Positions 1 to 44,656 of a DNA stretch of 64,000 nt are shown piece after piece (the stretch's first letter is position 1; the number at the start of each line of letters is the position of its first letter). Source of the stretch: a phage; assembly GCA_012813795.1 (NCBI GenBank), contig GCA_012813795.1_4087.1, one strand, 5' to 3'. Position numbers and translations under genes: made by a program. A model generated the notes under the pieces. That model was not told the origin of the DNA. It made no database searches and saw only the letters and a program-made list of their open reading frames with translations.

Positions 1-2634
1 AACGCAGTAACTGTAAACGTCGGTGGTATTACTGCTAAAGGTGGCTTGACTGTTGCTTCTGGAAACTTGAAAGTTGCTGCTGCGGCAGTGGTTGATGGTT
101 CAGTAAGTGCTGGTTCATACACAAGTGCTGGAGATAAAATAACACTAGCTAAACCAACAGATGTTACTGGTGATTTGCACGTTGAAGGTGCTTTCACTGC
201 AACTTCCGTTGATTTTAGTGATACTAATTTGACTGTTAAATCACTACAAGTTAATAATGACGTTACTATTGATGGTAACTTAACTATCAAAAATGCTGAG
301 TTGGAAACTAACACATTAGCAAGTACTACAAGTACTACTGTTGGTACTGACCTAATTCTAACTACTGGTACAATTACTGGTGCTCCAATAATTTCTGGTG
401 CTACTACACTAAGTTCAACACTACATACAGTGGGTGCTGCAACTTTTGATAGTACTGTTGATGTTGGTGGTAAAATTACTTCTAAATCAATCCAAGTAAG
501 TGATACTGGTGTTGGTGTAGCTGTTGATAATGATGCAACTGTTGGTGGTTATTTGACAATTGGTGAAACATTAGGTGTTACTGGGTTAAGTACTCTATCT
601 GGTGGGGTTGATGCAGGTTCTGCATTAATTAAAACTACTGGTGAAGTTCAATCCGCAACTCTTCAAACTTCTGGTAAAGCAACACTAGCAAGTGTTGATG
701 TTTCAGGTGATGCAGTTGTTACTGGTGACCTAACTGTTAAAGGTGCATTTACACCTGAAGGTAGCCTAAACATAGGTTCTGCTGTTCTAAACGTTGAAGG
801 TATTGATGCAAGTGCTAACTTAACTGCACTCGGTTCTGTAACTGCTGGTACTACACTAACTGTTACTGGTGTTTCAACTCTAAATGGTGGTACTAACACT
901 ACTACTCTTTCAACAAGTGGTAAAGCTACATTAAGTAGTGCGGAAGTTACTGGTGCTCTAAGTGCTGGTGGTGCTTTAACTGTTACTGGCACTACAAATC
1001 TAACTGGAAAACTAACCGCTGGTGAAGCTGCTCTCAGTTCACTAACAGTTTCTGGTGATGTTACCATTAATGGAACACTAAACCCTGGAACATTGGATCT
1101 ATCTACTACTCCAGTTGATGCGAAAAGCTTGAAATCCAGAGAAACACTAGAAGTTACTGGCCTAAGCACACTAACTGGTGGTTTGGCTGTTAGTGCAAAT
1201 GCCGCAATCACTGCTGCTGGTGACATTACAGGTACGACAATTACCACAACTGGTAAAGGTACATTTGGTAGTGCAGAAGTAACTACTGGTTTGACTGTTG
1301 GTGGTGCTTTGGTTGTTAATGGTGCATCCGTGAACATCTCTGATGCTTCTACTGTGACTATGCCTAAAGCTGATATTTCTGCGAAAGGTATTATCATCGG
1401 TACTAAAGTTAGTTCAAGATCGGAAACTATCCAATTTGTTGGTGATACTTATATTGGTAATGACCTATTTGTTGCTGGTAATATTAACGGTTCAGTAGAT
1501 TTGGATGGTCAGGATATTTCCCTGAACTCATTAACTTCTAATACCACAATTCACGCAGTTGAGGATATTACTACTGATGAAGATATGCACGCACGTGCTG
1601 CAACATTCGGTGCAAAAGGTTCAACATCTAACAGCCTAACTGTTAATGGTAACGCAGTAACTACTGGCGACTTTACGGTTACTGGTAAGATTATTGGTAC
1701 ACTGGACCAATCTGCAAGTGCAGTCGAAGTTAAATCTCTAACTTCTACAACCTTTATCGCTGCTAACACAACCCTTACCGTTGGTTCAACAATCACTGCT
1801 GAAGGTTTGAGTACATTGAAAGGTGGTATTGTAACTAATGGTGCTACAATCAACGCTGGTGCTGGTGCTATCACCACAACTGGTGATGTTTCTGGTGCAA
1901 ACGTTAATGTATCTGGTGCAGTATCAACTGCAACTATTACAACTTCTGGCCTAGCAACTATGGCAAGTGCTAAGATTAACACTACTCTAGCAGTTACTGG
2001 TGCAACTACACTATCTGATGTTGTTACTATCGGTAAGAAACTAACTGTTAGTACTGGTGGTATCGAAATCACTGCGGGTGGCTTCAATGTAGTTGCGGGT
2101 GGTGCAGCAATTACTGGTGCTACTAACCTTAAAGGTGCTGTAACACTAGGTTCTGCGTCTGCTGATGCAATCACAGTTACTGGTACATCTTCATTTGCTG
2201 AAAATGCAACATTTGCTAAAGATGTAACTATTGAAGGTACACTACATACTGATATTGCTGATTTAGTAACTGAAAGTGTAACTACTAAAAAGTATGCTGT
2301 TACACCTGCTGCTAAAGTTACTGCTTCTGGTGTGGCTCCGTCTGAAGGGACATGGACACCTGATGGTCAATCAAATGTGTATTATATCACACTTGACCAA
2401 GCAACAACTACTCTTGGTCCAATTAACGGATTGATTGGAAGTGGGAAGGCTGGTTCTTACTATATCTACGTACAACAAGATGCAACTGGTGGACGTGAAT
2501 TTACCACTGATGGTACTTATGCAGTAGTAGGTGGTGAGATTAATAAAACACAAAATACAGTTAGTATCATTCAGTTGATTTATGATGGATACAGCCCAGT
2601 AGTAGATATGTTTATAGCTCAACGTACTGCTTAA
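1..2634 (+). CDS. Tail fibre-like structural protein, 5' end lies outside the window
   Basis: Reading frame is open from nt 1 (track ORF 46..2634 begins at TTG); long Thr/Gly/Ser/Val-rich quasi-repetitive sequence typical of fibrous proteins. Confidence 0.6.
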   Translation, partial: NAVTVNVGGITAKGGLTVASGNLKVAAAAVVDGSVSAGSYTSAGDKITLAKPTDVTGDLHVEGAFTATSVDFSDTNLTVKSLQVNNDVTIDGNLTIKNAELETNTLASTTSTTVGTDLILTTGTITGAPIISGATTLSSTLHTVGAATFDSTVDVGGKITSKSIQVSDTGVGVAVDNDATVGGYLTIGETLGVTGLSTLSGGVDAGSALIKTTGEVQSATLQTSGKATLASVDVSGDAVVTGDLTVKGAFTPEGSLNIGSAVLNVEGIDASANLTALGSVTAGTTLTVTGVSTLNGGTNTTTLSTSGKATLSSAEVTGALSAGGALTVTGTTNLTGKLTAGEAALSSLTVSGDVTINGTLNPGTLDLSTTPVDAKSLKSRETLEVTGLSTLTGGLAVSANAAITAAGDITGTTITTTGKGTFGSAEVTTGLTVGGALVVNGASVNISDASTVTMPKADISAKGIIIGTKVSSRSETIQFVGDTYIGNDLFVAGNINGSVDLDGQDISLNSLTSNTTIHAVEDITTDEDMHARAATFGAKGSTSNSLTVNGNAVTTGDFTVTGKIIGTLDQSASAVEVKSLTSTTFIAANTTLTVGSTITAEGLSTLKGGIVTNGATINAGAGAITTTGDVSGANVNVSGAVSTATITTSGLATMASAKINTTLAVTGATTLSDVVTIGKKLTVSTGGIEITAGGFNVVAGGAAITGATNLKGAVTLGSASADAITVTGTSSFAENATFAKDVTIEGTLHTDIADLVTESVTTKKYAVTPAAKVTASGVAPSEGTWTPDGQSNVYYITLDQATTTLGPINGLIGSGKAGSYYIYVQQDATGGREFTTDGTYAVVGGEINKTQNTVSIIQLIYDGYSPVVDMFIAQRTA

Positions 2635-2642
2635 TATATATG

Positions 2643-2663
2643 GTGCGGGGATTTTCCCCGCAC
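2643..2663 (+). terminator. Stem-loop directly after fibre gene stop
   Basis: GTGCGGGG-ATTTT-CCCCGCAC perfect 8-bp GC-rich stem; weak T-tract after it. Confidence 0.4.
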
Positions 2664-2702
2664 TGTATTGTAAATAATTTAATTTTTTAATGAGGTAATA
2701 TT

Positions 2703-3479
2703 ATGGCTCAATTTACATATGTAAGTGGTAGTTCACCTACTGATTATAAACTAGGAAATATAATTTCAAATCCAATAAATGTAAAAGGTCTTTCATTAAG
2801 TCCACCACCACCCAATGATCCTACTGGTGAATATCATTATACCTACAGCGATATTAGACCATTGTATGGTATAAAAACATCACCCGATGCAGTACTACCA
2901 ATAAAAACTGATGAAGTTCGTAAACTTGAAGGTTTTTGGTGGTTGGATTATGCATCAATTGGAGACAAAAACACCAAAGGTGAATATCTAGAATATCGTA
3001 AACCAAAAGGTGATGCAGTAGTTACATTTAACGAAACCGAAGTAGCACCATATGCAGCATTAACAGCAGTAAAAACACAAACCTACATTGATATGGATTT
3101 GGCTGATGTTAAAGCTGATTTGAAGCAAAGAACCGCATCTGAACGAGATAATTTAATTAATAGTGGTTATCATTACGGAACAGTTGATGTAACATTCCCT
3201 AGTGATGTTAATGGTCGTCAGATGTTAAACAACTATTATACACAAGCGATTAATGGTTCCCAAACTATTAATATCTATCTAGATAGTGGTGAGATTGTAA
3301 CAGTTGATGGTGATGAGATGGTTGAAATTTTCAATGGTCTATTGGCACAAATCGACGGTTACTTTGATGCAGCAACTGCACAACAAACTGCAATTGATGC
3401 AGCAACTACAATCATTGATGCACAAAAAGCAGCAACTTTTGTATATCCAGATCAATCTAAGATCCCAGTACGTGATTAA
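2703..3479 (+). CDS. Hypothetical protein between two fibre genes (possible fibre-associated protein)
   Basis: 258-aa ORF, GAGG ribosome-binding site upstream, position in fibre cluster. Confidence 0.5.
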   Translation: MAQFTYVSGSSPTDYKLGNIISNPINVKGLSLSPPPPNDPTGEYHYTYSDIRPLYGIKTSPDAVLPIKTDEVRKLEGFWWLDYASIGDKNTKGEYLEYRKPKGDAVVTFNETEVAPYAALTAVKTQTYIDMDLADVKADLKQRTASERDNLINSGYHYGTVDVTFPSDVNGRQMLNNYYTQAINGSQTINIYLDSGEIVTVDGDEMVEIFNGLLAQIDGYFDAATAQQTAIDAATTIIDAQKAATFVYPDQSKIPVRD

Positions 3480-3488
3480 TAAACACTA

Positions 3489-3520
3489 AGGTCAACTATG
3501 GTTGGCCTTTTCTTTTTCTT
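3489..3520 (+). terminator. Rho-independent terminator candidate
   Basis: AGGTCAAC-tatg-GTTGGCCT hairpin (one G-U pair) followed by TTTCTTTTTCTT. Confidence 0.5.
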
Positions 3521-3522
3521 AA

Positions 3523-3530
3523 AATAAATA
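3523..3530 (+). promoter_or_regulatory. T4 late-promoter-like motif AATAAATA about 30 nt upstream of the 3561 start
   Basis: ATAAATA core of the T4 TATAAATA late promoter consensus, read on plus strand. Confidence 0.25.
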
Positions 3531-3560
3531 CTTGATATAATTGTATGAGGATAGTCAATA

Positions 3561-5534
3561 ATGTCAATTAATAGAATTCGTGGTGATGGTGGTGTTATCA
3601 TAGATAGCAAAGCTTTCCTTGAACTACCAAAAGCCCCAACGATAGTAACAGCAGACCAAATGCGTACAGGTATGATTCGATACAACACTGAATGGAAAGC
3701 ATTCGAAGGTGTTCTCGAATTTGAAGATGGTTCAGTTGCGTATAGACGTTTTGCAAACCTAGATGCAAATGGCAAACTATTGTCATCTCAATTACCAGAT
3801 TCTGTAACAAGTGGATTGCAATTCCTTGGTACATATGATGCTATTGAAGATGATACAAATCCACCAGCATCCTATACAGCATTACCTGCACCATCTGTTT
3901 CCTTAAATGGTGATTATTATGTTGTTCGTGGTGTTATGGATGCAGCACAAGAGCACTATACACAAAATACCCCCACAACAAGCCCAGTTAAATTCACACC
4001 AGTGAATCCAACTGGTCAAGGTGATTGGATTGAAATTCTATATTATATAGATCAAAACCCAATTGAACCAACTAAAAAATTGGTAAGTTATGCGTTTGCT
4101 CGTATTATAACAACTGCAATCCCAGCAAGTGGTCATGAAGGTCTTGTGAATTTGGCACAAGATGAATCGATCACTACACCTTTTGATACATCTTTGACAC
4201 CACAAGGCCAAACTGCATTAGCTGATAGTGACTGGATTATCATCACTGAAACTAAAAACATTCGCCTACGTCAGTCAAGAGCTAGTATTTCAGCTTCTTC
4301 AGTACTGTATGATAACACTATCATGGTTGGTAGTCAACGTCAATTTAGTACCAACGCAGGTACAGTTCAAACTACCTTAGATAACCTCGTATTAGAGGGC
4401 TTACGCCGCACTGGTGACTCTATGGTTGATGATGGACTGATAGGCAAAGGAAGACTAGGGGTAACTTATGGTAGTGCTACAGAGCCAGCTATAGGCTTTA
4501 ATAACGCACCATATGACCCAAACACTAACCCAGGAAACGATCCAAGTAAATGGACTGACACAAAAACTGGTATTTTCCACCCAGCAGATGCCGCTATTGG
4601 TTTAACCACAGCAGGTGTTGAACGTGTGCGAGTAACAAATGGTTCTTTGAATTTATATCAAAGCACTACTACCCCCGCATCTGCACCAACATTACGTTTT
4701 GCTAATGCTTCCAACACAAACGTAGGCATTAGTGGTGAAAATAATATTTTGTCATTTAGTTCTATGAACAAAGTACAAGTTGAAATACAAAATGGTGTAA
4801 CCAAATTACATGGAAACTTAGAAGTTGATGGTATTAGTACTTTAACGGGTGATGTTACGGCGGTTTCAAATGTTACAACTAATGGTAATTTGAACGTTAA
4901 AGGGAATACTATATTAGGAACTGGTAGTTCAACTAATTTATTAACAGTTAACTCGGTGTCCACGTTTAATAAAGAAACTAATTTTATCAATGCTAATAAT
5001 AATTTTAATGGAATCCTGCTAACCAGTGGTAATTCATTTAGATTTGCACACGTTACCAACGATATTAATATGAAACTACTAAACGGTGAATTGCGTATGG
5101 ATGTTCGTGGTTATGCGGATTTATCTGTATATGACAGTAATGTGTTGCGTACACGTATTAACCGTTATGGTATCCAATTACCAGTACTGACAACTGTTAA
5201 TGACAGTGAAGGTGTTGATGGTATGATTGCGTACTCTGAACAGAATAGAACATCAATGCAGAAAGTTGATGGTAAATGGGTTCCGATTGGTTCTGGTACA
5301 GTAAGAACTACATTATTCACTGTTGATAATTGGGTACTTGATGGTGCATATTACAGACTGACAGTTCCAGAAACTGATATAGTTAATGCTGAAATTCAAG
5401 AACAAGTAGCAACTGATGAATTTGTTAAAGTTGATGTTGATAGTGTTAAGTTTACATTAACTGGTGTAGTTTATAGTATTCCTTCTTCTCCTGATGTTCG
5501 TTTTGCAGGAAGAACATTAGTAACCGTGAAATAA
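3561..5534 (+). CDS. Tail fibre / receptor-binding-type structural protein
   Basis: 657-aa ORF, Asn/Thr/Ser/Gly-rich with NGNLNVKGNTILGTG-type repeats; location next to other fibre genes. Confidence 0.55.
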   Translation: MSINRIRGDGGVIIDSKAFLELPKAPTIVTADQMRTGMIRYNTEWKAFEGVLEFEDGSVAYRRFANLDANGKLLSSQLPDSVTSGLQFLGTYDAIEDDTNPPASYTALPAPSVSLNGDYYVVRGVMDAAQEHYTQNTPTTSPVKFTPVNPTGQGDWIEILYYIDQNPIEPTKKLVSYAFARIITTAIPASGHEGLVNLAQDESITTPFDTSLTPQGQTALADSDWIIITETKNIRLRQSRASISASSVLYDNTIMVGSQRQFSTNAGTVQTTLDNLVLEGLRRTGDSMVDDGLIGKGRLGVTYGSATEPAIGFNNAPYDPNTNPGNDPSKWTDTKTGIFHPADAAIGLTTAGVERVRVTNGSLNLYQSTTTPASAPTLRFANASNTNVGISGENNILSFSSMNKVQVEIQNGVTKLHGNLEVDGISTLTGDVTAVSNVTTNGNLNVKGNTILGTGSSTNLLTVNSVSTFNKETNFINANNNFNGILLTSGNSFRFAHVTNDINMKLLNGELRMDVRGYADLSVYDSNVLRTRINRYGIQLPVLTTVNDSEGVDGMIAYSEQNRTSMQKVDGKWVPIGSGTVRTTLFTVDNWVLDGAYYRLTVPETDIVNAEIQEQVATDEFVKVDVDSVKFTLTGVVYSIPSSPDVRFAGRTLVTVK

Positions 5535-5563
5535 AAAAAGGGAGACAAATGTCTCCCTTTTCT
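5533..5563. terminator. Bidirectional rho-independent terminator at the convergence of plus and minus transcription
   Basis: AAAAAAA-GGGAGAC-aaat-GTCTCCC-TTTTCT; A-tract and T-tract flank a perfect GC-rich stem, so it works on both strands. Confidence 0.75.
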
Positions 5564-5564
5564 A

Positions 5565-6494
5565 TTATACAGCCATTGGTGCTTTGATTGTTGGCATTGG
5601 ATTGTAATTCAAAAGTTTGAAAGAATCCATTGTAAAATCTTCAATATCGGTAATTGAAGGATCTAGCCATAGTTCTGGTAATTCACGTGGTTCACGTTGA
5701 AGTTGTTCTTTTACTTGTTCAACGTGGTTTTTGTAAATGTGACAATCACCACCATTCCAAATAAACTCACCAACCTCAAGTCCAGTGATTTGTGCAATCA
5801 TATGGGTTAGTAGTGAATAGCTACTAATATTAAATGGTACTCCCAAAAATAGATCCGCACTGCGTTGATGTAGAATACAGCTTAGCTTGCCCTGTACGAC
5901 ACAAAACTGTACAAAGCTATGGCAGGGTGGTAAAGTCATATCATCAAGCTCACCGACGTTCCAGGCACTTAGAATGTGACGGCGACCATATGGGTCGGCT
6001 TTAATACCCTCAATAACTTGTTTTAGCTGGTCAGTAACTCGACGCATAACAACACCATGAGCACCAGTATAATCAATAACTTTATAACCTTTATCTTTCA
6101 ATTCTTGAATTTCTTCAGTACTGGTACTGAATTTATAATCTTCCCATTCACGCCATTGCTTACCATAAACTGGTCCAAGCTCACCATTAGAATATCCAAG
6201 AGCTACACCTTGATTAAGGTAGTTATCTGTCCAAATTGTTTTCTTTTCCCAATCACGAGTGCCGTGTAGAATTTCACACAAGCGACGCTCATCATGAGAA
6301 CCTTCAATGAACCATAATAATTCTGAAGTCATTGCTTTCCAAGCTAAACGTTTGGTTGTCACTGCTGGAAAGCCTTGTTGAAGGTCAAAACGCATTTGTT
6401 GACCGATTAGTTTGATAGTACCTACACCTGTACGATCAGTACTTTCTACGCCTTCATCCAGAATTTTTTGATATAGTTCTTGTAGTTGTTTCAT
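5565..6494 (-). CDS. thyA: Thymidylate synthase
   Basis: Conserved ThyA blocks: VYGKQWR, ILSAWNVGEL, LPPCH, LSCILHQRSADLFLGVPFNI, GGDCHIY. Confidence 0.95.
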   Translation of the reverse strand: MKQLQELYQKILDEGVESTDRTGVGTIKLIGQQMRFDLQQGFPAVTTKRLAWKAMTSELLWFIEGSHDERRLCEILHGTRDWEKKTIWTDNYLNQGVALGYSNGELGPVYGKQWREWEDYKFSTSTEEIQELKDKGYKVIDYTGAHGVVMRRVTDQLKQVIEGIKADPYGRRHILSAWNVGELDDMTLPPCHSFVQFCVVQGKLSCILHQRSADLFLGVPFNISSYSLLTHMIAQITGLEVGEFIWNGGDCHIYKNHVEQVKEQLQREPRELPELWLDPSITDIEDFTMDSFKLLNYNPMPTIKAPMAV

Positions 6495-6497
6495 TGT

Positions 6498-7088
6498 TCA
6501 TCCTTGAAAAAATGTTGTAAAGTGCATCATATGCTTTTCTTGTGCATTTCTTGAGCCTATTCCCGTCCAATTTCCATGTGGCTTAGGTACTGATGCGGTT
6601 TCTTCGAATTCTTTTAGTACTGGATTATATGAATATACTTTTCTGTCATTAATGTCATAGCAGTATATTTCAGGATTATCAGTACTGTCAATATACATTT
6701 GTACAGCCCATGCAGTACCACCACTGACTTGAGTAGGTGAAACCAGTGATGCCATACAATAAACTCTCTCTGTGTTTAAAATTTGATATCTATTACGTGC
6801 TAATAGATTATAAACATATGAGCCAGGTTTAGGAACACGGCGTTGTAATGAATAACATGCCATGTTTAGTTGGTGTAGAATAGAACTATCATTCAAAATA
6901 TAAGATGGGATTTCTAATATAGTACTTTCATCAACACTATGATTATGATTTTTGAATGAAAAGTTAATTACATTAAAACCATTTTCCATAGCATATAAAG
7001 TAAAAAAGCGGTCTGCACCTTGTGCACCACCGCTATAAAATGTATTAGTTAATCCCTTGATTGCTTCATCAAGTTCATTTATCGTCAT
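6498..7088 (-). CDS. Hypothetical protein with YSGGAQGADR motif (possible Rossmann-like DprA/SLOG-type fold)
   Basis: 196-aa ORF; glycine-rich motif only, fold assignment is a guess. Confidence 0.5.
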   Translation of the reverse strand: MTINELDEAIKGLTNTFYSGGAQGADRFFTLYAMENGFNVINFSFKNHNHSVDESTILEIPSYILNDSSILHQLNMACYSLQRRVPKPGSYVYNLLARNRYQILNTERVYCMASLVSPTQVSGGTAWAVQMYIDSTDNPEIYCYDINDRKVYSYNPVLKEFEETASVPKPHGNWTGIGSRNAQEKHMMHFTTFFQG

Positions 7089-7401
7089 TCTTATGTTCCA
7101 AAGCAGACATTAATTCTTGTAAATTCTCATCCTCTAATGCGAAACTGGTTTCAAGGGCTGCCAAAATGACAGCACCAGCTTTGATTAAGGACTCTCTAAA
7201 TTCATCGAATGATACATGCTTATCGGGGCGAGTTGCCCCTTCGAAGAGATAATAGGCACATAAGGAAGCCCAATCATTCTTTGTTTTAAGTGTATCAGAT
7301 AATGTATTTGGATTATCTATTTGTTTCTGTCTTTCTTCAGTTATTTTGAGAATGATATCTTCTCTAGTAACTTTAGCCATTCTTACGCTCTGCAAAAACA
7401 A
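7075..7401 (-). CDS. Hypothetical protein
   Basis: 108-aa ORF in the co-directional gene series, short overlap with neighbours. Confidence 0.55.
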   Translation of the reverse strand: MFLQSVRMAKVTREDIILKITEERQKQIDNPNTLSDTLKTKNDWASLCAYYLFEGATRPDKHVSFDEFRESLIKAGAVILAALETSFALEDENLQELMSALEHKNDDK

Positions 7402-8029
7402 GTTTTAGTTTCTCAATTGCTTTGGTTTGAGAAATACCTTCTGGGAGTTCAATGTAAAAAACTTTCTTATCAGAATCAGTTTTCACATTCGTTTCGTTGG
7501 GACGAAGAGAAGGTTCTAGGTTATAAGCACGCTCATAATGCTCTTTAGATAATTGATCATATTTTGCAGCAGTTTTTAGTAGTTCATCAACAATAGTTTC
7601 ATCTTCGACTTTTGTATCTTGAACTTGTGGATTGAATGGGTTGTAATCTTTTACTTTACCATCTTCATGTTTTTTACTTTCATTACCGTCGATTGCATCA
7701 TTCAGTACATCAAGTGAAATCTTGTTGTTACCGCCAGTGTGCATGTCAATATCACAAGTACGGACCTTACGTAGATATTGTAGATTGTGAAGAACATCTA
7801 GCATTTTACGACCATCGAGATAACCTACTTGATGCATAACTTCCCAAAGTTCAACAGAAGCTTGTCCACGACCCATAACTAAATCGGTTACAGCAGATAC
7901 ATATGCTTCTGGAAGTGAGTCACGATACACCACTAGACAATGATCATGATCATCTGGAAGTGAACGCCAAACAACGAAAACACGAGAACCAGTATTACGA
8001 ATTACACCTGTGTGACGAATAGCAGCCAT
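7373..8029 (-). CDS. Hypothetical protein
   Basis: 218-aa ORF, consistent strand and packing. Confidence 0.6.
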   Translation of the reverse strand: MAAIRHTGVIRNTGSRVFVVWRSLPDDHDHCLVVYRDSLPEAYVSAVTDLVMGRGQASVELWEVMHQVGYLDGRKMLDVLHNLQYLRKVRTCDIDMHTGGNNKISLDVLNDAIDGNESKKHEDGKVKDYNPFNPQVQDTKVEDETIVDELLKTAAKYDQLSKEHYERAYNLEPSLRPNETNVKTDSDKKVFYIELPEGISQTKAIEKLKLVFAERKNG

Positions 8030-8271
8030 TATTCTTCCCCTTCTGTACCAGCGGTATCTTGTGCTTGAGCAGCAGCTTCTTCACGTTCTTTGATATCAGC
8101 AAGTGCTTTATCAGCAAATTTAACGAACTTAGAAACAATTGGTGCTACGTTCACTAGTTCATCAACTTGAAACGCATTACGTGCAACCGCAGATTCCATA
8201 ATACGAGCAGCGTTGATTAGGTCAACTAGGTCTAGGATTACTTCGTCTTGTGCATTGTTTTCAGTACTCAT
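8029..8271 (-). CDS. Hypothetical small acidic protein
   Basis: 80-aa ORF, start overlaps stop of upstream gene. Confidence 0.55.
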   Translation of the reverse strand: MSTENNAQDEVILDLVDLINAARIMESAVARNAFQVDELVNVAPIVSKFVKFADKALADIKEREEAAAQAQDTAGTEGEE

Positions 8272-8346
8272 ATATTACTCTCCATGTATGTTATTACAAT
8301 TTCCATTATATCATAGTTAATTGGGTTGTCCCAATTATAAAATAAA

Positions 8347-8368
8347 AGAGAACGACGAATCGTTCTCT
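8347..8368 (-). terminator. Rho-independent terminator after the VWA gene
   Basis: AGAGAACGA-cgaa-TCGTTCTCT hairpin; T-rich tract on the minus-strand side (complement of aaaataaaag). Confidence 0.5.
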
Positions 8369-8378
8369 ATATTTATTT

Positions 8379-9854
8379 TTACGAACGTTGGCGTTTTTTG
8401 TCCGCTTCATATTCGTAGTGAACAGTTTCACCAAATGGTGCTACTTTGTTCGGGTTACTGTGGATTACAAACAGTGTTTTACAGTAGTTAGGATCACCCC
8501 ATGACTGCCACGGTTCACCATCGGTAAACATGATAAGCTGCTTAGGCTTATAATTGTCATGCTTCATGTGAACCCAAACTGCTTCAAAGTCAGTACCGCC
8601 ACCACCTTTAACTGGATATTCAAGAATCTTACGTTCTTCACCAGTTTTATAATCCATCACAGTATAAACTTCAGTATCAAATGTCATGATACGAATTTTA
8701 AACTGCTTGAATTGTTTAGTGATGCCTAGTACTTCACTGATGAAATCGCGAAGCATATCTTCACTGATAGAGCCTGATGCATCGAGTGCAATTGCAATAT
8801 CAATATCGTCATCTGGTTTCATGCCTGGGAAGATTGGATTCCCATAGAATGAACCGTTAGAACCAAAACCAGCACCCCACGAACGGCGGCTTGGGCTTTG
8901 ATAGGTCGCATCGGACTTCAACCAACTACGAAGAGTACGTTGAAGTTTAGAACGCCAGTCAATTTTTGGTTCTTTAAAGTTATTGATCATACGAGCGATT
9001 TCAGCAGGAGTACCACCTGCACGAGCAGCATTCATCATTGCTGTTTTGAAATCGTCCATGTATTCACGTTTTTGTGCTTCAGATGCACCACCTTCACCAC
9101 CTTCACCATCTTGTGGTACATCGTGTTGGTCAATGGTAGTGCCTTTGCCTTTACCATTTTGGATATCACCAAAAGTACCGCGTGATTTACCTTCACCTTC
9201 ACCACTACCAGATTGTGGCTGACCTTCACCTTCATCTTGATCTTGTTTATCTTCTTCTTCTAGAAGAATATAAATCTCTTCGGCGGTCATACCATCATAC
9301 TTCTTATCATACAACCATTGACTTTGAATCTTACCAATTTTTTCACGAACAATAATTTGGTTGATTGCGTAGTCTGCTGCACGGTTGTAGCGTTGTGGGT
9401 CACGCATACCACGACGAAGGAAGTGATCGTATGCACAGTGAAGAATTTCATGACAGATAACTGCAATCAGGTTTTCATCAGTCAAACCTTCGGTCATTTC
9501 TTTCAATTGTTCTTCAGTTACTTCAGGATGCTTCTCACGAATTGCTTCTTCGTATGCTTCTTTCTTGCTTGGGTCTTGAATACCCATGATAAATTCTACG
9601 TTATAGAATAAATGTTTACCATCTACTGCTAAGGTACGACACCATGTATTGTTTGCAACTGGACGCAGACGTGAAGCCAGTACACCAAAGAATGGAGCAG
9701 TTAACATCAGAGAAGTACGAGCAAGAATCAAACGGTCTTGGCATTCTTTCTGGAGTTGTGGTGTTACGTCGCTAAATTTCTTATCGGACATGATATTTCC
9801 TCGTTTAGTTAAGATAAAAGAAGGATACCATGTGGCATCCTTCTTGTCAAACAT
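8379..9854 (-). CDS. VWA-domain protein with N-terminal putative metallopeptidase domain (HExxH)
   Basis: HEILHCAYDH zinc-peptidase-like motif; C-terminal DIDIAIALDASGSIS MIDAS-type VWA motif; Gly/Glu-rich linker. Confidence 0.75.
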   Translation of the reverse strand: MFDKKDATWYPSFILTKRGNIMSDKKFSDVTPQLQKECQDRLILARTSLMLTAPFFGVLASRLRPVANNTWCRTLAVDGKHLFYNVEFIMGIQDPSKKEAYEEAIREKHPEVTEEQLKEMTEGLTDENLIAVICHEILHCAYDHFLRRGMRDPQRYNRAADYAINQIIVREKIGKIQSQWLYDKKYDGMTAEEIYILLEEEDKQDQDEGEGQPQSGSGEGEGKSRGTFGDIQNGKGKGTTIDQHDVPQDGEGGEGGASEAQKREYMDDFKTAMMNAARAGGTPAEIARMINNFKEPKIDWRSKLQRTLRSWLKSDATYQSPSRRSWGAGFGSNGSFYGNPIFPGMKPDDDIDIAIALDASGSISEDMLRDFISEVLGITKQFKQFKIRIMTFDTEVYTVMDYKTGEERKILEYPVKGGGGTDFEAVWVHMKHDNYKPKQLIMFTDGEPWQSWGDPNYCKTLFVIHSNPNKVAPFGETVHYEYEADKKRQRS

Positions 9855-9865
9855 TCTTTTAGTTA

Positions 9866-11191
9866 TTAACCAAGAGAACGTGCTTTGCGTACTAGGTCAG
9901 AGTACTTCATAACGAAGTCTTTGAACGCTGGAACATCTTTGTACGCAATCGCTACCTTATGTTGAGTGATGGTACGAATTGCTAGTACTGCCAGTTCTGC
10001 CTGAGTTTCGGAGAAGTTACGGTCCAGGAAGGTGATGAAGTTGTTGCACAGCTTGCCCCACTCTTCAACTGGAAGACGTTGTTCTTGCTTCTCATTGTAC
10101 AGGTCGATAATTTTATAAACCAGATTCAGAGAGATGAAGTAGTTCGCAGAAATATCCAGCGTTGCATCAATCTCTTTAATCTCACCCTGTAGGATGGACA
10201 TAGTATCTGGTAGTTTAGATACGTTTTCTACGTATTCGATATATTCAGTTGCTACACCTTCACCAACACGACCAGCGATTAGAGCACGGAACACTTCTTT
10301 ATCAATGTTGTTGCCTTTCTTCAGGTCTTCGTAGCGTGCTACTGCTTCCCATGAACGTGGAGAAGTACCACCACTGTGAGAAGGATCTTGTGGGCTAAGG
10401 GTGTTGAAGTACTTAGCACCAGTGTTGTTGATGAACGCAACAGTACCTGGGTTCAAACGCTTAGCAATCGCGTAATCGTCAATCCAATCTTGATGGTAAG
10501 GAACCATTTCGATGTGGGTCATACGGTCACGTAGTGGCGTTGCCAGAGAGAACGTTACGCCGCCATCAGTTTCACGGTTACCTGCTGCGAGAATCAGTGC
10601 AGTCTTAGGTAGCTTCATCTCACCAACACAACGGTCGAGGATTAGCTGATAAGACGCTGCCTGTACAATCGGCATAGCAGAGTTAATTTCGTCAAACAGG
10701 ATAACACCTTTCCAATCTGGAGACAGTTTCAGTACTTTAGGTGCTGCCCATACAACTGCTGTTTCAGCAATGTAATCTTTAGCTGTTTCCAGTTCAGATT
10801 CAATCAGTTGTTTGCCATCCATATCCAGGAACACTTTTTCAGGGACTGGGATACCACGTAGGTCACTTGGTTCAATCTGTGACAAACGGAAGTCGATGAA
10901 GTTAGTGTCTTGGTCAATCAGTTTTGCTTCAAACGCTGCCAGTTCGCGGCGAAGTGCATCAGCATTTTCAGCATCAACTTCAATTTGTTGTTTCATGAAC
11001 TCGATTTTAGCCAAGTTATCCTTACGAAGAGGATAGTTCTCGTCAGCGTATTGACGTGCAATCGCAGACTTACCGATACCAGGGCTACCCCAAATCATCA
11101 GACTGTCCTGAATTTTATCTGCCAGAGCCATAGCCATTTTTGCTTTCTTAGGAGTCAGTTTTACGTTCAGGATATCTTGTTGTTCGCTCAT
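9866..11191 (-). CDS. MoxR-type AAA+ ATPase
   Basis: Walker A GSPGIGKS, Walker B ILFDEIN; AAGG ribosome-binding site; directly upstream of the VWA partner. Confidence 0.8.
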   Translation of the reverse strand: MSEQQDILNVKLTPKKAKMAMALADKIQDSLMIWGSPGIGKSAIARQYADENYPLRKDNLAKIEFMKQQIEVDAENADALRRELAAFEAKLIDQDTNFIDFRLSQIEPSDLRGIPVPEKVFLDMDGKQLIESELETAKDYIAETAVVWAAPKVLKLSPDWKGVILFDEINSAMPIVQAASYQLILDRCVGEMKLPKTALILAAGNRETDGGVTFSLATPLRDRMTHIEMVPYHQDWIDDYAIAKRLNPGTVAFINNTGAKYFNTLSPQDPSHSGGTSPRSWEAVARYEDLKKGNNIDKEVFRALIAGRVGEGVATEYIEYVENVSKLPDTMSILQGEIKEIDATLDISANYFISLNLVYKIIDLYNEKQEQRLPVEEWGKLCNNFITFLDRNFSETQAELAVLAIRTITQHKVAIAYKDVPAFKDFVMKYSDLVRKARSLG

Positions 11192-11256
11192 GTGTATTTT
11201 CCTTTTGTTGGATAAAAAACTAGGTTTATATTATAACCAATCCGTTGGCAAAAGTA

Positions 11257-11296
11257 AAGGAACTGTGTTAAAAGTATTTTAACTTATCAGTTCCTT
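11257..11296 (-). promoter_or_regulatory. Long stem-loop in leader region
   Basis: AAGGAACTG ... CAGTTCCTT 9-bp inverted repeat; the loop carries a second palindrome TTAAAA-gta-TTTTAA. Confidence 0.3.
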
Positions 11297-11358
11297 ATCT
11301 TCAGTGAATCATCCGTGTGTTTAAAAAGGTCAATCTTGTTTGCCGTCTTGATGTGGTC

Positions 11359-11386
11359 ATTATATCACATCGTTCAGGCTTGTCAA
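11359..11386 (-). promoter_or_regulatory. Near-consensus sigma70 promoter P1
   Basis: Minus strand reads TTGACA-16 nt-TATAAT with TGn extended -10. Confidence 0.6.
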
Positions 11387-11452
11387 CAACTTTTTTTTCT
11401 TTCTTTTTCAATCTCACATCTTGTGATTTTGAAATCTTGCTTCGTGACGTTC

Positions 11453-11480
11453 ATTATATCACGTTAATCTGTACTGTCAA
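11453..11480 (-). promoter_or_regulatory. Near-consensus sigma70 promoter P2, tandem copy of P1
   Basis: Minus strand reads TTGACA-16 nt-TATAAT with TGn; shares GTGATATAATGA core with P1. Confidence 0.6.
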
Positions 11481-11544
11481 CATCTTTTTCATTTTTATTT
11501 TCGAAGCGTTCTACATATGCATCGAAAATAACTGCTTGAAATCA

Positions 11545-11889
11545 TCACCGACACAATGTTAATTCAGTAACTACCATTGCGTCGGAGAGATATATGTAGT
11601 AGCCATCAACATAATAAGGACTTCTACATATTCTATCAAGCGATGTAAATATTATAGAGCTTTTGAACTCTCTTAGCAAGGGGATTTTTGTAAATTCATA
11701 AAGATTATTTTCTTCACAAATCATAAATCCATACTTACTAAGCCTCAAACCACCACCAGTTCTGAAGTTTTCAAAAATAGACATCAGAAGCATTCTGTCA
11801 GTGATTTCAGCGTCCGATTCATGTACTTCTTTAACTTTTATAAGTACTTCATTTTGAAATTCAGTGCTGTTAGTGGGTTGTGGTATCAT
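11545..11889 (-). CDS. Hypothetical protein
   Basis: 114-aa ORF in co-directional series. Confidence 0.55.
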   Translation of the reverse strand: MIPQPTNSTEFQNEVLIKVKEVHESDAEITDRMLLMSIFENFRTGGGLRLSKYGFMICEENNLYEFTKIPLLREFKSSIIFTSLDRICRSPYYVDGYYIYLSDAMVVTELTLCR

Positions 11890-11891
11890 AA

Positions 11892-12293
11892 TTACATCCC
11901 CACAAAACCTTGTCTGGCAGCATAAGAAGGAGCATCTTTAACTTTATAGCTACGATGACCTTCACTGTCAACTTTAGGAGCCATATCTTCAGTACCGAAA
12001 TCTTCTTCAATTTCTTTAGTACTGTCTTTTGCTTCTAAGTCATCATTATATTCCACATCTGCCAAAATGTCACATGCTTTTTTAAGTTTTTCTGCGATTT
12101 CTTTATGGTCAGAACCTTCTTCTTTTGCTTTATCAACTAAAGCAACTAAAGATGTAGTGATTTCCTTTAGTAAATCAACGATAACGTTGTCCGAATCTTC
12201 TTGGACAACGATACCATTTTCTTCTTGAGGAACTTCTTCTTCTGCCATAATCGCATCTAGTGATTCCACTAGTTCACGATAGTTATATGACAT
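11892..12293 (-). CDS. Hypothetical acidic protein
   Basis: 133-aa ORF, Glu/Asp-rich. Confidence 0.6.
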   Translation of the reverse strand: MSYNYRELVESLDAIMAEEEVPQEENGIVVQEDSDNVIVDLLKEITTSLVALVDKAKEEGSDHKEIAEKLKKACDILADVEYNDDLEAKDSTKEIEEDFGTEDMAPKVDSEGHRSYKVKDAPSYAARQGFVGM

Positions 12294-12294
12294 A

Positions 12295-44034: not shown

Positions 44035-44595
44035 TTAATATAAATCAGTTATTCTCTTTTGGATTTTGAATTTACGCTGTTCTTCTTCAATTTGTGATAA
44101 CTTTTCTTTAATATCTTCAGCACCAATAATCACATGGAACAGGATCATTAACTCATCATCATCAAGCATATCATAATGAACACCGAAGTTTGAAGAAACA
44201 ACACATGACAAATCTCTTGATTGAATGATAGTTTCTTCGGTTCTGTGTTCAATCCCTGCTGGTGTATACTCAACCTTAAACATGATTGCATTTTTTAAAT
44301 CGCGTAGTATGAATTCTTCATCACCACCCCACAGTTTTTTTTGAACCATAGACCAACGATCACTGAATGGATTTTGGGTGTATTCTGCCAGTAATCCATA
44401 TAGTTTATGCTTACTTAACTTGTACTTAAGTTCGATAAGTGATTTACGATCATTATCGGTTTTCACAAAATCTTTAAGAGTTACACTTTTGCATAGCAAA
44501 CGAACTACTAGTGTATTCTGAAAGTGCTGCTCTTTTTCTTTTAAACGTTGTAACTGTGCGGGTGACAGTGGTGGTCTAAAACGTGATTGTACCAT
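44035..44595 (-). CDS. Hypothetical protein, paralog family member 3
   Basis: KTDNDRKSLIELKYKLSKH ... PFSDRW; AGGAGG ribosome-binding site. Confidence 0.6.
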   Translation of the reverse strand: MVQSRFRPPLSPAQLQRLKEKEQHFQNTLVVRLLCKSVTLKDFVKTDNDRKSLIELKYKLSKHKLYGLLAEYTQNPFSDRWSMVQKKLWGGDEEFILRDLKNAIMFKVEYTPAGIEHRTEETIIQSRDLSCVVSSNFGVHYDMLDDDELMILFHVIIGAEDIKEKLSQIEEEQRKFKIQKRITDLY

Positions 44596-44627
44596 AGATT
44601 CCTCCTAGTTTTTTAGCATTATACAGA

Positions 44628-44656
44628 TAAAAGAAAAGCCTGTCAATAGACAGGCT
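44628..44656. terminator. Rho-independent terminator after the fibre-like operon (T-tracts on both sides)
   Basis: AGCCTGTC-aata-GACAGGCT perfect 8-bp stem; TTTTCTTTT on the minus side and TAATTTTTT on the plus side. Confidence 0.7.

What the first reader, a model, noticed from the sequence alone, without database searches (positions are those of the whole stretch)
8379..11191. MoxR-type AAA ATPase paired with a VWA/metallopeptidase protein, behind tandem consensus promoters
The pair has the classic MoxR-VWA chaperone-like arrangement, with an HExxH domain fused to the VWA protein. Its role in a phage is unclear (virion maturation, host takeover or anti-defence). The pair sits directly downstream of two near-consensus sigma70 promoters, implying strong early expression.
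Basis: partly seen in the sequence, partly recalled or inferred. Interest (0 to 1): 0.5.

Follow-up and report, generated by a model that had tools for sequence, protein, structure and literature searches.

The report
Phage MoxR ATPase with VWA-peptidase partner
A real but already described gene pair of large phages: an ATP-driven ring motor and an adaptor protein that carries a zinc-protease-like domain. The host's own RNA polymerase most likely switches it on early in infection, and its target is still unknown.

Summary
The window is about 99% Escherichia phage A4, a 355-kb jumbo phage of the 121Q/RaK2 group. Minus-strand ORFs 11191..9866 and 9791..8379 encode a MoxR-class AAA+ ATPase and a DUF2201 protein: an N-terminal HExxH zincin-like domain, a disordered acidic linker and a MIDAS-bearing VWA domain. 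All catalytic motifs are invariant in homologues. Two perfect sigma70 promoters lie upstream.

The pair is not new. It is orthologous to N4 gp24/gp25, is annotated as such in phAPEC6 and RaK2, and was described for jumbo phages by Iyer et al. 2021, who proposed a virion-assembly role. Its function has not been tested.

My additions:
- Across about 90 diverse phage loci the two genes are almost always linked.
- Each gene usually has its own near-consensus sigma70 promoter, and a covarying terminator hairpin separates them.
- In the RaK2 lineage, a conserved terminator-like hairpin also sits between the promoters and the ATPase gene.
- Three unknown genes (114, 80 and 218 aa) are syntenic with the pair.
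- Homologous pairs sit beside type IV secretion operons on conjugative plasmids.

These features favour an early remodelling or proteolytic role over virion assembly. Interest is moderate to low.

The parts
11545..11889 (-). 114-aa ORF of unknown function, conserved immediately upstream of the ATPase gene
   Evidence: ORF; phrog_15638. Homologues lie directly upstream of the ATPase in 65 of 86 loci with room, with invariant GGLRL and (C/S)PYY motifs. No Pfam or PDB relatives. It has no strong promoter of its own (0 of 64 loci).
11453..11480 (-). Promoter P1: TTGACA-16 nt-TATAAT, 12/12, with extended -10 TG
   Evidence: Conserved as 11/12 in 121Q and phAPEC6.
11359..11386 (-). Promoter P2: TTGACA-16 nt-TATAAT, 12/12, with extended -10 TG, 94 nt downstream of P1
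   Evidence: It is 12/12 in 121Q and phAPEC6. RaK2 has a single 12/12 site.
11249..11296 (-). Leader hairpin T1 (AAGGAACTG...CAGTTCCTT) followed by TTTACTTTTG: a terminator- or attenuator-like element between P1/P2 and the ATPase start codon
   Evidence: Read. MFE -15.4 kcal/mol, z = -4.25. An equivalent hairpin plus T-tract with different stem sequences is found in RaK2, Yen9-04, pEa_SNUABM_19 and XaC1.
11230..11258 (-). Weaker promoter-like site P3 (TTTACT-17-TATAAT, 10/12) overlapping the T-tract of T1, 38 nt before the ATG
   Evidence: Conserved in 121Q and phAPEC6, degenerate in RaK2. Function not shown.
9866..11191 (-). MoxR-class AAA+ ATPase, 441 aa (orthologue of N4 gp24, RaK2 Gp24-like and phAPEC6 gp265c)
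   Evidence: Invariant residues: Walker A G38/K41/S42, Walker B D167/E168, sensor 1 N205, R223, R279. Two clade-specific insertions lie at about residues 52-95 and 118-145.
9818..9850 (-). Intergenic hairpin T2 (AAGAAGGATGCC-ACAT-GGTATCCTTCTT, then TTTATCTT) overlapped by a promoter-like TTGACA-17-TATCCT (10/12, with TG)
   Evidence: A hairpin plus T-rich tail occupies this gap in 47 of 56 loci against 72 of 342 control gaps. In many loci it is embedded in, or followed by, a perfect promoter for the VWA gene, with covariation.
8379..9791 (-). DUF2201 protein, 470 aa: zincin-like HExxH domain, disordered acidic/Gly linker, helical region, VWA domain (orthologue of N4 gp25 and phAPEC6 gp264c)
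   Evidence: The common 'HNH endonuclease' label (phrog_1314) has no support in the domain searches.
9234..9791 (-). N-terminal zincin-like domain (residues 1-186). The motif H114-E115-x-x-H118-x-x-x-x-H123 is encoded at 9423..9452
   Evidence: PF13203. H114, H118, H123, R126, R130, D140 and N144 are invariant and E115 is at least 90% conserved. No sequence relative among solved structures.
8382..8810 (-). [quoted passage not shown]
8347..8368 (.). Bidirectional terminator-like hairpin T3, directly after the VWA stop codon
   Evidence: 9-bp stem with T-rich tails on both strands.
8029..8271 (-). 80-aa ORF of unknown function, syntenic downstream of the VWA gene
   Evidence: phrog_13789. Homologues are present in 42 of 62 loci with room. 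Translationally coupled to the next gene (median gap -1).
7373..8029 (-). 218-aa ORF of unknown function, syntenic downstream: a conserved ~115-residue N-terminal domain, a variable linker and a C-terminal helix
   Evidence: phrog_15894. Homologues in L002 and L003 and in 38 of 56 loci with room. Alignment A4. No Pfam or PDB relatives. The phAPEC6 orthologue gp262c gave 1 peptide in virion MS.

Best explanation
The two genes encode a two-component, ATP-driven protein-remodelling machine of the MoxR/VWA kind. It is the jumbo-phage orthologue of N4 gp24/gp25.

Shown here: an AAA+ ATPase with all catalytic residues and a MoxR-like fold, and a partner with an intact MIDAS-type VWA domain joined by a flexible acidic linker to a zincin-like HExxHxxxxH domain. 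The two genes are almost obligatorily linked across very different phages.

Inferred by analogy with CbbQO and NorQD:
- The ATPase forms a hexamer that binds one copy of the VWA protein.
- The MIDAS metal captures an acidic residue of a target protein.
- ATP hydrolysis twists or stretches the adaptor and its target.
- The tethered zinc site then cleaves the target, or less likely only holds a metal.

The host sigma70 RNA polymerase most probably transcribes both genes early. Each gene has its own promoter, and insulating terminator hairpins would let the phage make more ATPase than adaptor, in line with a 6:1 complex.

I think the most likely role is an early or middle intracellular one: remodelling or cleaving a host protein or an early phage protein while infection is being established. 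Virion morphogenesis seems less likely. The target is unknown.
For: Identity:
- Pfam DUF2201_N plus DUF2201.
- Invariant HExxH/H123 and MIDAS residues in 34 homologues down to about 40% identity.
- Invariant Walker A/B, sensor 1 and arginines in 36 ATPase homologues.
- ATPase model of pLDDT 85, with NorQ (solved with the NorD VWA domain) and CbbQ2 as the best solved matches.

Linkage: 75 of 76 loci with enough sequence encode both genes, and 61 have them adjacent in the order ATPase then VWA. The same pairing is seen in N4-like IME11, RaK2, 121Q, Yen9-04 and XaC1.

Early timing:
- Two perfect sigma70 promoters in the window.
- A promoter of at least 11/12 within 120 nt upstream of the ATPase gene in 50 of 82 loci and of the VWA gene in 40 of 65, against 70 of 920 other genes.
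- None upstream of the flanking conserved genes.
- N4 gp24/gp25 are reported as middle transcripts (PMC4193335).

Unequal dosage: a hairpin plus T-tract lies between the genes in 47 of 56 loci against 21% of control gaps, with compensatory changes. CbbQ6:CbbO1 stoichiometry and a single NorD finger in the NorQ pore are established (PMC4660213; PMC13036017). In phAPEC6 virion preparations the ATPase was detected and the VWA protein was not.

Not tied to one virion type: the pair occurs in jumbo myoviruses, rV5-like myoviruses and N4-like podoviruses. It also occurs on conjugative plasmids next to VirB type IV secretion operons, with the same motifs. In phages it repeatedly neighbours nucleotide and DNA-metabolism genes: ThyA, ThyX, dCTP deaminase, DHFR, FEN.
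Against: - No experiment on this family exists in the literature I could search. Hexamer formation, the 6:1 complex, peptidase activity and every statement about targets are inference.
- The window ATPase misses all Pfam thresholds on its own.
- In this phage a terminator-like hairpin lies between the strong promoters and the ATPase gene, so early expression could be weak.
- In the RaK2 lineage the pair directly follows a long block of structural genes.
- The ATPase orthologue was found in purified phAPEC6 virions. This fits the rival virion-assembly view.
- Promoter predictions are consensus matches, not mapped transcription start sites.
- The loci compared are related phages, so the counts are not independent events.
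Confidence: 0.5

Rival explanations
1. Virion assembly or maturation chaperone-protease. This is the published proposal for jumbo phages. The MoxR/VWA pair would help assemble a virion structure and the fused peptidase would process structural proteins, as proposed for the MoxR p618 / VWA p892 pair in tail development of the archaeal virus ATV.
For: - Proposed by Iyer et al. 2021 (PMC7824862).
- ATV p618 is a major virion component, binds the VWA protein p892 and several virion proteins, and both p387 and p892 stimulate its ATPase (PMC4124505).
- The phAPEC6 orthologue gp265c was detected in CsCl-purified virions with 6 peptides and 19% coverage, and gp262c (the 218-aa protein) with 1 peptide.
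- In the window and in RaK2, 121Q and Yen9-04 the pair directly follows structural genes on the same strand.
Against: - The pair is conserved in phages with unrelated virion architectures and on conjugative plasmids that make no virions.
- Both genes typically carry their own sigma70-consensus promoters, the hallmark of early host-polymerase transcription, whereas neighbouring genes do not.
- N4 gp24/gp25 are middle, not late, transcripts.
- Outside the RaK2 lineage the neighbours are nucleotide and DNA-metabolism genes.
- Thymidylate synthase, a plainly non-structural enzyme, was also 'detected in virions' of phAPEC6, so that list includes carry-over or packaged non-structural proteins.
- The VWA/peptidase partner itself was not detected.
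- ATV p618 is not among the 50 closest viral structures.
Confidence: 0.2
2. Metal-cofactor insertion chaperone. Like NorQ/NorD (iron into NO reductase), CoxD/E, CobS/T or BchI/D, the pair would open a metalloenzyme and load its metal. Candidates are a phage or host enzyme of nucleotide metabolism, such as a ribonucleotide reductase. The HExxHxxxxH site would then serve as a metal-holding site and not as a protease.
For: - The closest solved structures are NorQ and the NorD VWA domain.
- The partner has the NorD-like layout of N-terminal domain, flexible linker and VWA domain.
- The acidic linker recalls chelatase D subunits (my own knowledge).
- The pair recurrently neighbours nucleotide-metabolism genes.
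- The window itself encodes an NrdD-like anaerobic reductase.
Against: - The glutamate of HExxH, a catalytic base and not a ligand, is conserved in at least 90% of homologues, which points to hydrolysis.
- Pfam and NCBI-type annotations class the domain with metallopeptidases.
- No single metalloenzyme co-occurs with the pair across N4-like, rV5-like and jumbo phages and plasmids.
- The linkage to ThyA/ThyX is loose, being several genes away.
Confidence: 0.1
3. The tandem consensus promoters chiefly make a short leader RNA, not the two proteins. Transcripts from P1/P2 would end at hairpin T1, giving RNAs of roughly 100 and 200 nt. The ATPase and VWA genes would then be expressed weakly or later from the weaker sites P3 and TTGACA-17-TATCCT, or by regulated read-through.
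For: - A stable hairpin plus U-rich tract lies between P1/P2 and the ATG. It is conserved with different stem sequences in five genera.
- Short sequence blocks in the leader are conserved: AAGACAG after the -10 element and GGAT(G/T)A before the hairpin.
- A weak promoter overlaps the T-tract.
Against: - The U-tract is interrupted (UUUACUUUUG), so termination is probably partial.
- In most other lineages the consensus promoter sits 60-90 nt from the ATPase ORF with no hairpin in between, so the ancestral role of the promoter is to drive the gene.
- No Rfam family matches the leader.
- No transcript data are available.
Confidence: 0.15

Closest known systems
Coliphage N4 gp24 (AAA+ ATPase) and gp25, core genes of N4-like phages (Schitoviridae)
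   Same: Homologous proteins in the same order and adjacent: IME11 ATPase then VWA-like protein, followed by dCTP deaminase and ThyX. They are listed among N4 core genes (PMC7650795). RaK2, K64-1 and phAPEC6 records already label the jumbo-phage genes 'Gp24/Gp25-like'.
   Different: About 25-28% identity. The N4-like proteins are shorter (about 350 and 390 aa) and lack the two ATPase insertions. Their genes abut, with no detected sigma70 promoter of at least 10/12 in the 300 nt upstream of the ATPase gene or hairpin between them. N4 transcribes them as middle genes with its own polymerase. The 114-, 80- and 218-aa neighbours were not detected there. The function is equally unknown.
MoxR-vWA pair with an N-terminal metallopeptidase in 'group 2.2' jumbo phages (Iyer, Anantharaman, Krishnan, Burroughs, Aravind 2021, Viruses 13:63)
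   Same: The same architecture is described: a MoxR AAA+ ATPase plus a vWA co-chaperone fused to an N-terminal metallopeptidase, in T4-related jumbo phages.
   Different: I could not check that their example accessions are orthologues of the window genes. Their proposal of virion assembly with processing of structural proteins is not favoured by the promoter, distribution and plasmid evidence gathered here.
NorQ/NorD and CbbQ/CbbO (bacterial MoxR-VWA remodelling complexes)
   Same: They are the best structural matches of the ATPase (NorQ, CbbQ2), and the VWA domain resembles the NorD VWA domain. They share the complete MIDAS motif and the adaptor layout of N-terminal domain, linker and VWA domain. 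Gene order is also ATPase then VWA.
   Different: Sequence identity is only about 12-14%. The phage adaptor carries a zincin-like HExxH domain that NorD and CbbO lack, and its VWA domain is minimal (about 140 residues) with no obvious 'finger'. The phage ATPase has a ~200-residue helical C-terminal region and two insertions. The targets (NO reductase, Rubisco) are irrelevant to a coliphage.
ATV p618 (MoxR) / p892 (VWA), the archaeal two-tailed virus tail-development chaperones
   Same: This is the only viral MoxR/VWA pair with biochemical data. The two proteins interact and the VWA protein stimulates the ATPase.
   Different: p618 is a major virion component with a RavA-like build, and p892 has no peptidase domain. 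p618 is not among the 50 closest viral structures to the window ATPase. The ATV system acts extracellularly in the virion, whereas the phage genes look like early genes.
MoxR-vWA ternary conflict systems (VMAP, iSTAND, FtsH, beta-propeller; Kaur et al. 2020, eLife 9:e52696)
   Same: They share the MoxR-vWA core. Peptidase effector domains are sometimes fused to the vWA component. A few ATPase homologues hit the bpMoxR profile.
   Different: No VMAP, iSTAND, FtsH or propeller third component lies nearby. In those systems effector domains are C-terminal to the vWA domain, whereas here the peptidase is N-terminal. No PADLOC model matches. Those are cellular defence systems of multicellular bacteria, not phage early genes.

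Membership tests
MoxR-class AAA+ ATPase | Complete AAA+ catalytic set: Walker A GxxGxGK[ST], Walker B hhhhDE, sensor 1 Asn, arginine finger, sensor 2 Arg | tested here: met
   G38/K41/S42, D167/E168, N205, R223 and R279 are invariant or nearly so in 36 homologues.
MoxR-class AAA+ ATPase | Significant match of the protein itself to a MoxR-type profile (Pfam AAA_3 / AAA_5 / bpMoxR) | tested here: not met
   The window protein scores AAA_3 17.6 bits and AAA_5 15.1 bits, both below their cut-offs of 27 and 22. Homologues do match at E < 1e-3: AAA_5 in 14 of 36, AAA_3 in 12 of 36, bpMoxR in 4 of 36. Membership therefore rests on transitive homology and structure.
MoxR-class AAA+ ATPase | Fold closest to solved MoxR proteins, with a helix-2 insert hairpin and a pre-sensor-1 hairpin | tested here: met
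   The top Foldseek hits are NorQ (9qh9 and related entries, target TM about 0.6), and CbbQ2 (6l1q) also appears. The model shows beta-hairpins at residues 114-149 and about 188-193.
MoxR-class AAA+ ATPase | Genomic pairing with a VWA/MIDAS protein | tested here: met
   75 of 76 loci with room have both genes, and 61 have them adjacent.
MoxR-class AAA+ ATPase | Hexameric ring, with ATPase activity stimulated by the VWA partner | not testable with these tools
   This needs purified proteins or a multimer structure prediction.
DUF2201 family (PF13203 + PF09967; 'predicted metal-dependent peptidase' with VWA) | Both Pfam domains above the gathering score, in the order N-domain then VWA | tested here: met
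   123 bits (cut-off 23.2) and 73.7 bits (cut-off 26.4). The same architecture is seen in all 120 listed homologues.
DUF2201 family (PF13203 + PF09967; 'predicted metal-dependent peptidase' with VWA) | Intact HExxH zinc site | tested here: met
   H114, H118 and H123 are invariant and E115 is at least 90% conserved. The motif is also kept in the plasmid homologues (HEVWHIANGH).
DUF2201 family (PF13203 + PF09967; 'predicted metal-dependent peptidase' with VWA) | VWA fold with a complete MIDAS motif (DxSxS...T...D) | tested here: met
DUF2201 family (PF13203 + PF09967; 'predicted metal-dependent peptidase' with VWA) | Actual peptidase activity and zinc binding | not testable with these tools
   No solved structure or biochemical study was found.
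HNH endonuclease (label used in many phage records and by phrog_1314) | HNH/His-Me finger nuclease domain | tested here: not met
   No HNH Pfam or NCBIfam hit at E <= 0.1. The only histidine motif is the zincin-type HExxH. The label appears to be an inherited misannotation.
ATV p618/p892-type virion-maturation chaperone | Both proteins are virion components or are expressed with structural (late) genes | tested here: inconclusive
   The ATPase orthologue was detected in phAPEC6 virions and the VWA partner was not, while ThyA was detected too. Both genes carry early-type sigma70 promoters. No transcript data are available.
Anti-phage defence systems built on MoxR-vWA (VMAP / iSTAND / FtsH / beta-propeller ternary systems) | A third signature component next to the pair, or a match to defence-system models | tested here: not met
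   PADLOC gave nothing below E 0.01. The neighbours are the unknown 114-, 80- and 218-aa proteins, a SLOG/DprA-like protein and ThyA.

The most novel reading that the evidence does not exclude
The MoxR ATPase and the VWA-zincin protein, possibly together with the syntenic 114-, 80- and 218-aa proteins, form a widespread 'establishment' module of mobile DNA. It would be shared by virulent phages of many families and by conjugative plasmids. Made immediately on entry by the host polymerase, it would capture a specific host protein through the MIDAS site, unfold it with the AAA+ ring and cut it with the tethered zinc protease. The target could be a defence factor or a nucleoid or replication protein. 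This would be a phage-borne, target-specific AAA+ protease built in trans.
Probability: 0.15. Interest if true: 0.75.

Novelty: already known. Interest (0 to 1): 0.35.

Why it matters
The pair is one of the most widely conserved gene sets of unknown function in large virulent phages. The VWA-protein and ATPase queries matched 698 and 823 of 50,697 sequenced phage records respectively, and the pair is a core gene set of N4-like phages and is present in rV5-like and RaK2/121Q-like phages used in therapy work. Finding its target would explain a step of infection common to very different phages, and perhaps to conjugative plasmids.

The regulatory layout found here gives concrete handles for experiments: a separate consensus promoter for each partner and covarying terminator hairpins, one of them embedded in a promoter spacer. 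The timing evidence also questions the only published functional proposal, virion assembly.

For this window the practical outcomes are better annotation and the leader attenuator. 'HNH endonuclease' is wrong, and the VWA gene starts at 9791.

Tried and rejected
- PADLOC defence models: no meaningful hit.
- NCBIfam: nothing.
- Rfam on 7000-13000 at E <= 1: only a chance fungal snoRNA hit.
- PDB sequence searches gave no relative for the ATPase, the VWA protein, the N-terminal domain profile, the 218-aa family or the 114-aa family.
- Pfam on all members of the 218-aa and 114-aa alignments: none.
- Literature: 'DUF2201' occurs in 3 unrelated papers. The PA5oct omics paper does not mention the genes. 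The CRISPRi-ART screens did not cover a phage with the pair genome-wide. One paper search failed on a term that was too short.
- A leader peptide in the 5' leader was rejected. The tiny ORFs (MIH*, MNY*) are not conserved and are absent in Yen9-04.
- A T4-type MotA box at P3 was rejected because the spacing does not fit (reading).
- The 'HNH endonuclease' and 'T4 gp25-like' labels were rejected as annotation artefacts.
- The cellular-genome scan found only 28 loci, nearly all MAG contigs that are probably phage DNA, so I found no evidence of a chromosomal bacterial origin for this clade.


Full report
**What the window is.** Region 8000-11600 is 99.3% identical to Escherichia phage A4 (ON286972, Asteriusvirus, 355 kb) and 84-86% identical to 121Q, PBECO4, phAPEC6 and relatives. 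The A4 record annotates the two genes as 'ATPase' and 'VWA domain-containing protein'. Upstream lies a long block of structural genes. Downstream lie four hypothetical genes and thymidylate synthase, all on the same strand.

**Checking the observation.**
- ORF listing gives 9866..11191 (441 aa) and 8379..9854 (491 aa) on the minus strand. The second gene most probably starts at 9791 (470 aa). Homologues start there, a GAGGA site precedes that ATG, and A4 is annotated that way.
- Pfam finds DUF2201_N 'putative metallopeptidase' (2e-35) and 'VWA-like domain DUF2201' (2e-20) in the second protein. In the first it finds only sub-threshold AAA hits: AAA 21.1 bits against a cut-off of 21.2, and AAA_5 15.1 bits over 19 residues.
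- PHROGs places the two proteins in phrog_1297 'ATPase' and phrog_1314, which is labelled 'HNH endonuclease'. Nothing in the domain searches supports that label.
- Two perfect TTGACA-16-TATAAT promoters with extended -10 TG lie at 11480..11453 and 11386..11359. Only four perfect sites exist in the 64 kb, against 0.13 expected.

**The proteins.**
- The VWA protein has thousands of homologues, all with the same two Pfam domains. In 34 of them, down to about 40% identity, the following are invariant or nearly so: H114, E115, H118, H123, R126, R130, D140, N144 and the full MIDAS set D337, S339, S341, T400, D424.
- The N-terminal domain has no sequence relative among solved structures. A profile of it finds 11,807 cluster representatives, and the full-length ones are almost all 380-480 aa. 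The peptidase-VWA fusion is therefore the standard form of the family.
- The ATPase has 576 detected homologues. The more distant ones, of about 360 aa, carry AAA_3, AAA_5 and bpMoxR hits. Walker A, Walker B, sensor 1 and two arginines are invariant. The jumbo-phage clade has two insertions.
- The ATPase model (pLDDT 85, pTM 0.76) is closest to NorQ, solved in complex with the NorD VWA domain, and also matches CbbQ2. Among viral models it matches RaK2 'Gp24-like' and many phage AAA proteins, but not ATV p618 within the top 50.

**What is already known.**
- Iyer et al. 2021 describe, for 'group 2.2' jumbo phages, a MoxR AAA+ / vWA pair whose vWA protein has an N-terminal metallopeptidase domain. 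They propose a virion-assembly role by analogy with ATV.
- N4 gp24 ('AAA+ ATPase') and gp25 are listed among the core genes of N4-like phages and are said to be middle transcripts.
- The phAPEC6 and RaK2 records already carry the notes 'MoxR ATPase', 'N4 gp25-like' and 'Gp24/Gp25'.
- In the phAPEC6 virion proteome the ATPase gp265c was detected (6 peptides, 19%). Thymidylate synthase gp259c (3 peptides) and gp262c (1 peptide) were also detected. The VWA protein gp264c is not listed.
- I found no functional study.

**Distribution and linkage.**
- tblastn finds the VWA protein in 698 and the ATPase in 823 of 50,697 phage records. These include RaK2/121Q-like jumbo phages, PA5oct-like phages, rV5-like and phiTE-like myoviruses, N4-like podoviruses and a cyanophage.
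- I analysed 93 loci that encode the ATPase: 80 IMG/VR contigs plus annotated records. Of these, 75 also encode the VWA protein and 61 have it immediately downstream on the same strand. Of the 18 without it, 17 have less than 1.7 kb of contig left downstream. In rV5-like phages the two genes lie 6 kb apart on opposite strands.
- Close relatives in 185,579 species genomes are few and nearly all on MAG contigs.
- 87 plasmids carry homologues. On two conjugative Burkholderia plasmids a 341-aa ATPase and the VWA protein, with the HExxHxxxxH and MIDAS motifs intact, sit directly upstream of the VirB type IV secretion operon.

**Regulatory architecture, the part that goes beyond the literature.**
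1. A promoter matching at least 11 of 12 consensus positions lies within 120 nt upstream of the ATPase gene in 50 of 82 loci, and upstream of the VWA gene in 40 of 65. For other genes of the same loci the figure is 70 of 920 (Fisher p about 1e-29 for the ATPase comparison). The three syntenic accessory genes have none.
2. The gap between the two genes is consistently about 75 nt. It holds a hairpin plus T-rich tail in 47 of 56 loci. This compares with 72 of 342 other same-strand gaps (p about 1e-19) and 6% of shuffled sequences.
3. The stems in that gap are unrelated in sequence between genera. In one large group the hairpin sits inside the promoter spacer, TTGA(CAGGACC-TTCG-GGTCCTG)TTATAAT, with 98.6% of cells paired and four of seven pairs showing double compensatory changes.
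4. The window has a degenerate form of this layout: TTGACA, a 12-bp hairpin, then TATCCT, at 9850..9818.
5. In the RaK2-like lineage a further hairpin plus U-tract lies in the leader between the strong promoter(s) and the ATPase start. In the window it is at 11296..11249, with dG -15.4 kcal/mol and z -4.25. It is conserved with different stems in RaK2, Yen9-04, pEa_SNUABM_19 and XaC1.
6. A bidirectional hairpin follows the VWA stop codon. The structural-gene block from 18.8 to 11.5 kb has no minus-strand terminator, so these elements cluster on the pair.
7. The tandem duplication of the promoter is specific to Asteriusvirus. RaK2 has one perfect site, Yen9-04 a 10/12 site, and XaC1 none of 10/12 or better.

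**Synteny.** Homologues of the 114-aa ORF lie just upstream of the ATPase in 65 of 86 loci with room. Homologues of the 80-aa and 218-aa ORFs lie downstream of the VWA gene in 42 of 62 and 38 of 56 loci. The last two are translationally coupled. None of the three has a Pfam or PDB relative. They were not detected in N4-like or rV5-like loci. The loci are related phages, so this may be inherited gene order and not functional coupling.

**How it most likely works.**
- Established for other MoxR/VWA pairs: one VWA protein binds a MoxR hexamer (CbbQ6O1). The MIDAS site binds an acidic residue of the substrate, and this binding stimulates the ATPase. [quoted passage not shown]
- The phage adaptor has the same three-part layout, with a zincin-like domain in the N-terminal position. 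I therefore infer an ATP-driven remodeller that presents a MIDAS-captured protein to a tethered zinc peptidase.
- Separate promoters and an intervening terminator would allow more ATPase than adaptor to be made.
- Early-type promoters, middle expression in N4, nucleotide-metabolism neighbours, presence in phages with unrelated virions and presence on conjugative plasmids all point to an intracellular role early in infection. The virion-assembly proposal keeps some support from the position next to structural genes in this lineage and from the phAPEC6 proteome. A metal-insertion role is a weaker alternative.

**Verdict.** Its function remains an open and reasonably important question. The regulatory and distribution patterns found here refine that question without settling it.

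Noticed in passing
L025, L028, L036, L039, L041, L043, L048, L058, L079, L084 (gap between the ATPase and VWA genes); degenerate form at window 9818..9850: A perfect sigma70 promoter whose 17-nt spacer is itself a GC-rich 7-bp hairpin with a UUCG-type loop: TTGA(CAGGACC TTCG GGTCCTG)TTATAAT. The stem covaries while both hexamers stay fixed. It reads as a terminator for the upstream gene fused base-for-base with the promoter of the next gene.
   Followed up: partly
window 11249..11352 (minus strand), between promoter P2 and the end of hairpin T1: The strong promoters could produce discrete short RNAs of about 100 nt (from P2) and about 200 nt (from P1) ending at T1. Short blocks of the leader (AAGACAG, GGAT(G/T)A) are conserved across genera. 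No Rfam match.
   Followed up: partly
window 6498..7088 (minus strand): A 196-aa protein with a GGAQGAD motif matches the SLOG family weakly (YAcAr, E 7e-4) and phrog_768 'DprA-like'. It sits between the cassette and thymidylate synthase and is syntenic in RaK2, 121Q and Yen9-04.
   Followed up: no
phAPEC6 record MK817115 (L008) and PMC7247149 Table 1: Thymidylate synthase gp259c, the ATPase gp265c and gp262c, three products of one short gene block, all appear in the 'virion' proteome of CsCl-purified phAPEC6. Either abundant early proteins carry over, or this block of proteins is packaged.
   Followed up: partly
window 44618..44646 and 60344..60372 (minus strand): These are the only other two perfect TTGACA-N17-TATAAT promoters in the window. 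One is upstream of a phrog_18641 gene of unknown function (44035..44595). The other lies between a PhoH-like gene (60380..61843) and an ORF with no PHROG match (59232..59978).
   Followed up: partly
window 44664..47432 and 48017..50716 (minus strand): Two paralogous proteins of about 900 aa, of unknown function, both matching phrog_3573 over their full length, separated by one small gene.
   Followed up: no
L123 (pBcp895-1) 2613..8200 and L124 (pMSMB608) 4948..8248: On conjugative Burkholderia plasmids the homologous ATPase/VWA-zincin pair lies directly upstream of the VirB2-VirB4 operon. In pMSMB608 a 308-aa unknown gene lies between the two, and in pBcp895-1 an IS21 insertion separates them. 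The plasmid ATPase has DD where the Walker B DE would be.
   Followed up: partly
L007 (Escherichia phage isim) 3930..4970: In rV5-like phages the gene directly upstream of the DUF2201 'metallopeptidase' is a 346-aa protein annotated 'anti-sigma factor', not the MoxR ATPase. The ATPase lies 6 kb away on the other strand and is split into two annotated CDSs.
   Followed up: no
many phage records: The DUF2201 protein is widely annotated 'HNH endonuclease', 'homing endonuclease' or 'T4 gp25-like'. This appears to be a propagated error that started with the RaK2 note and phrog_1314.
   Followed up: yes
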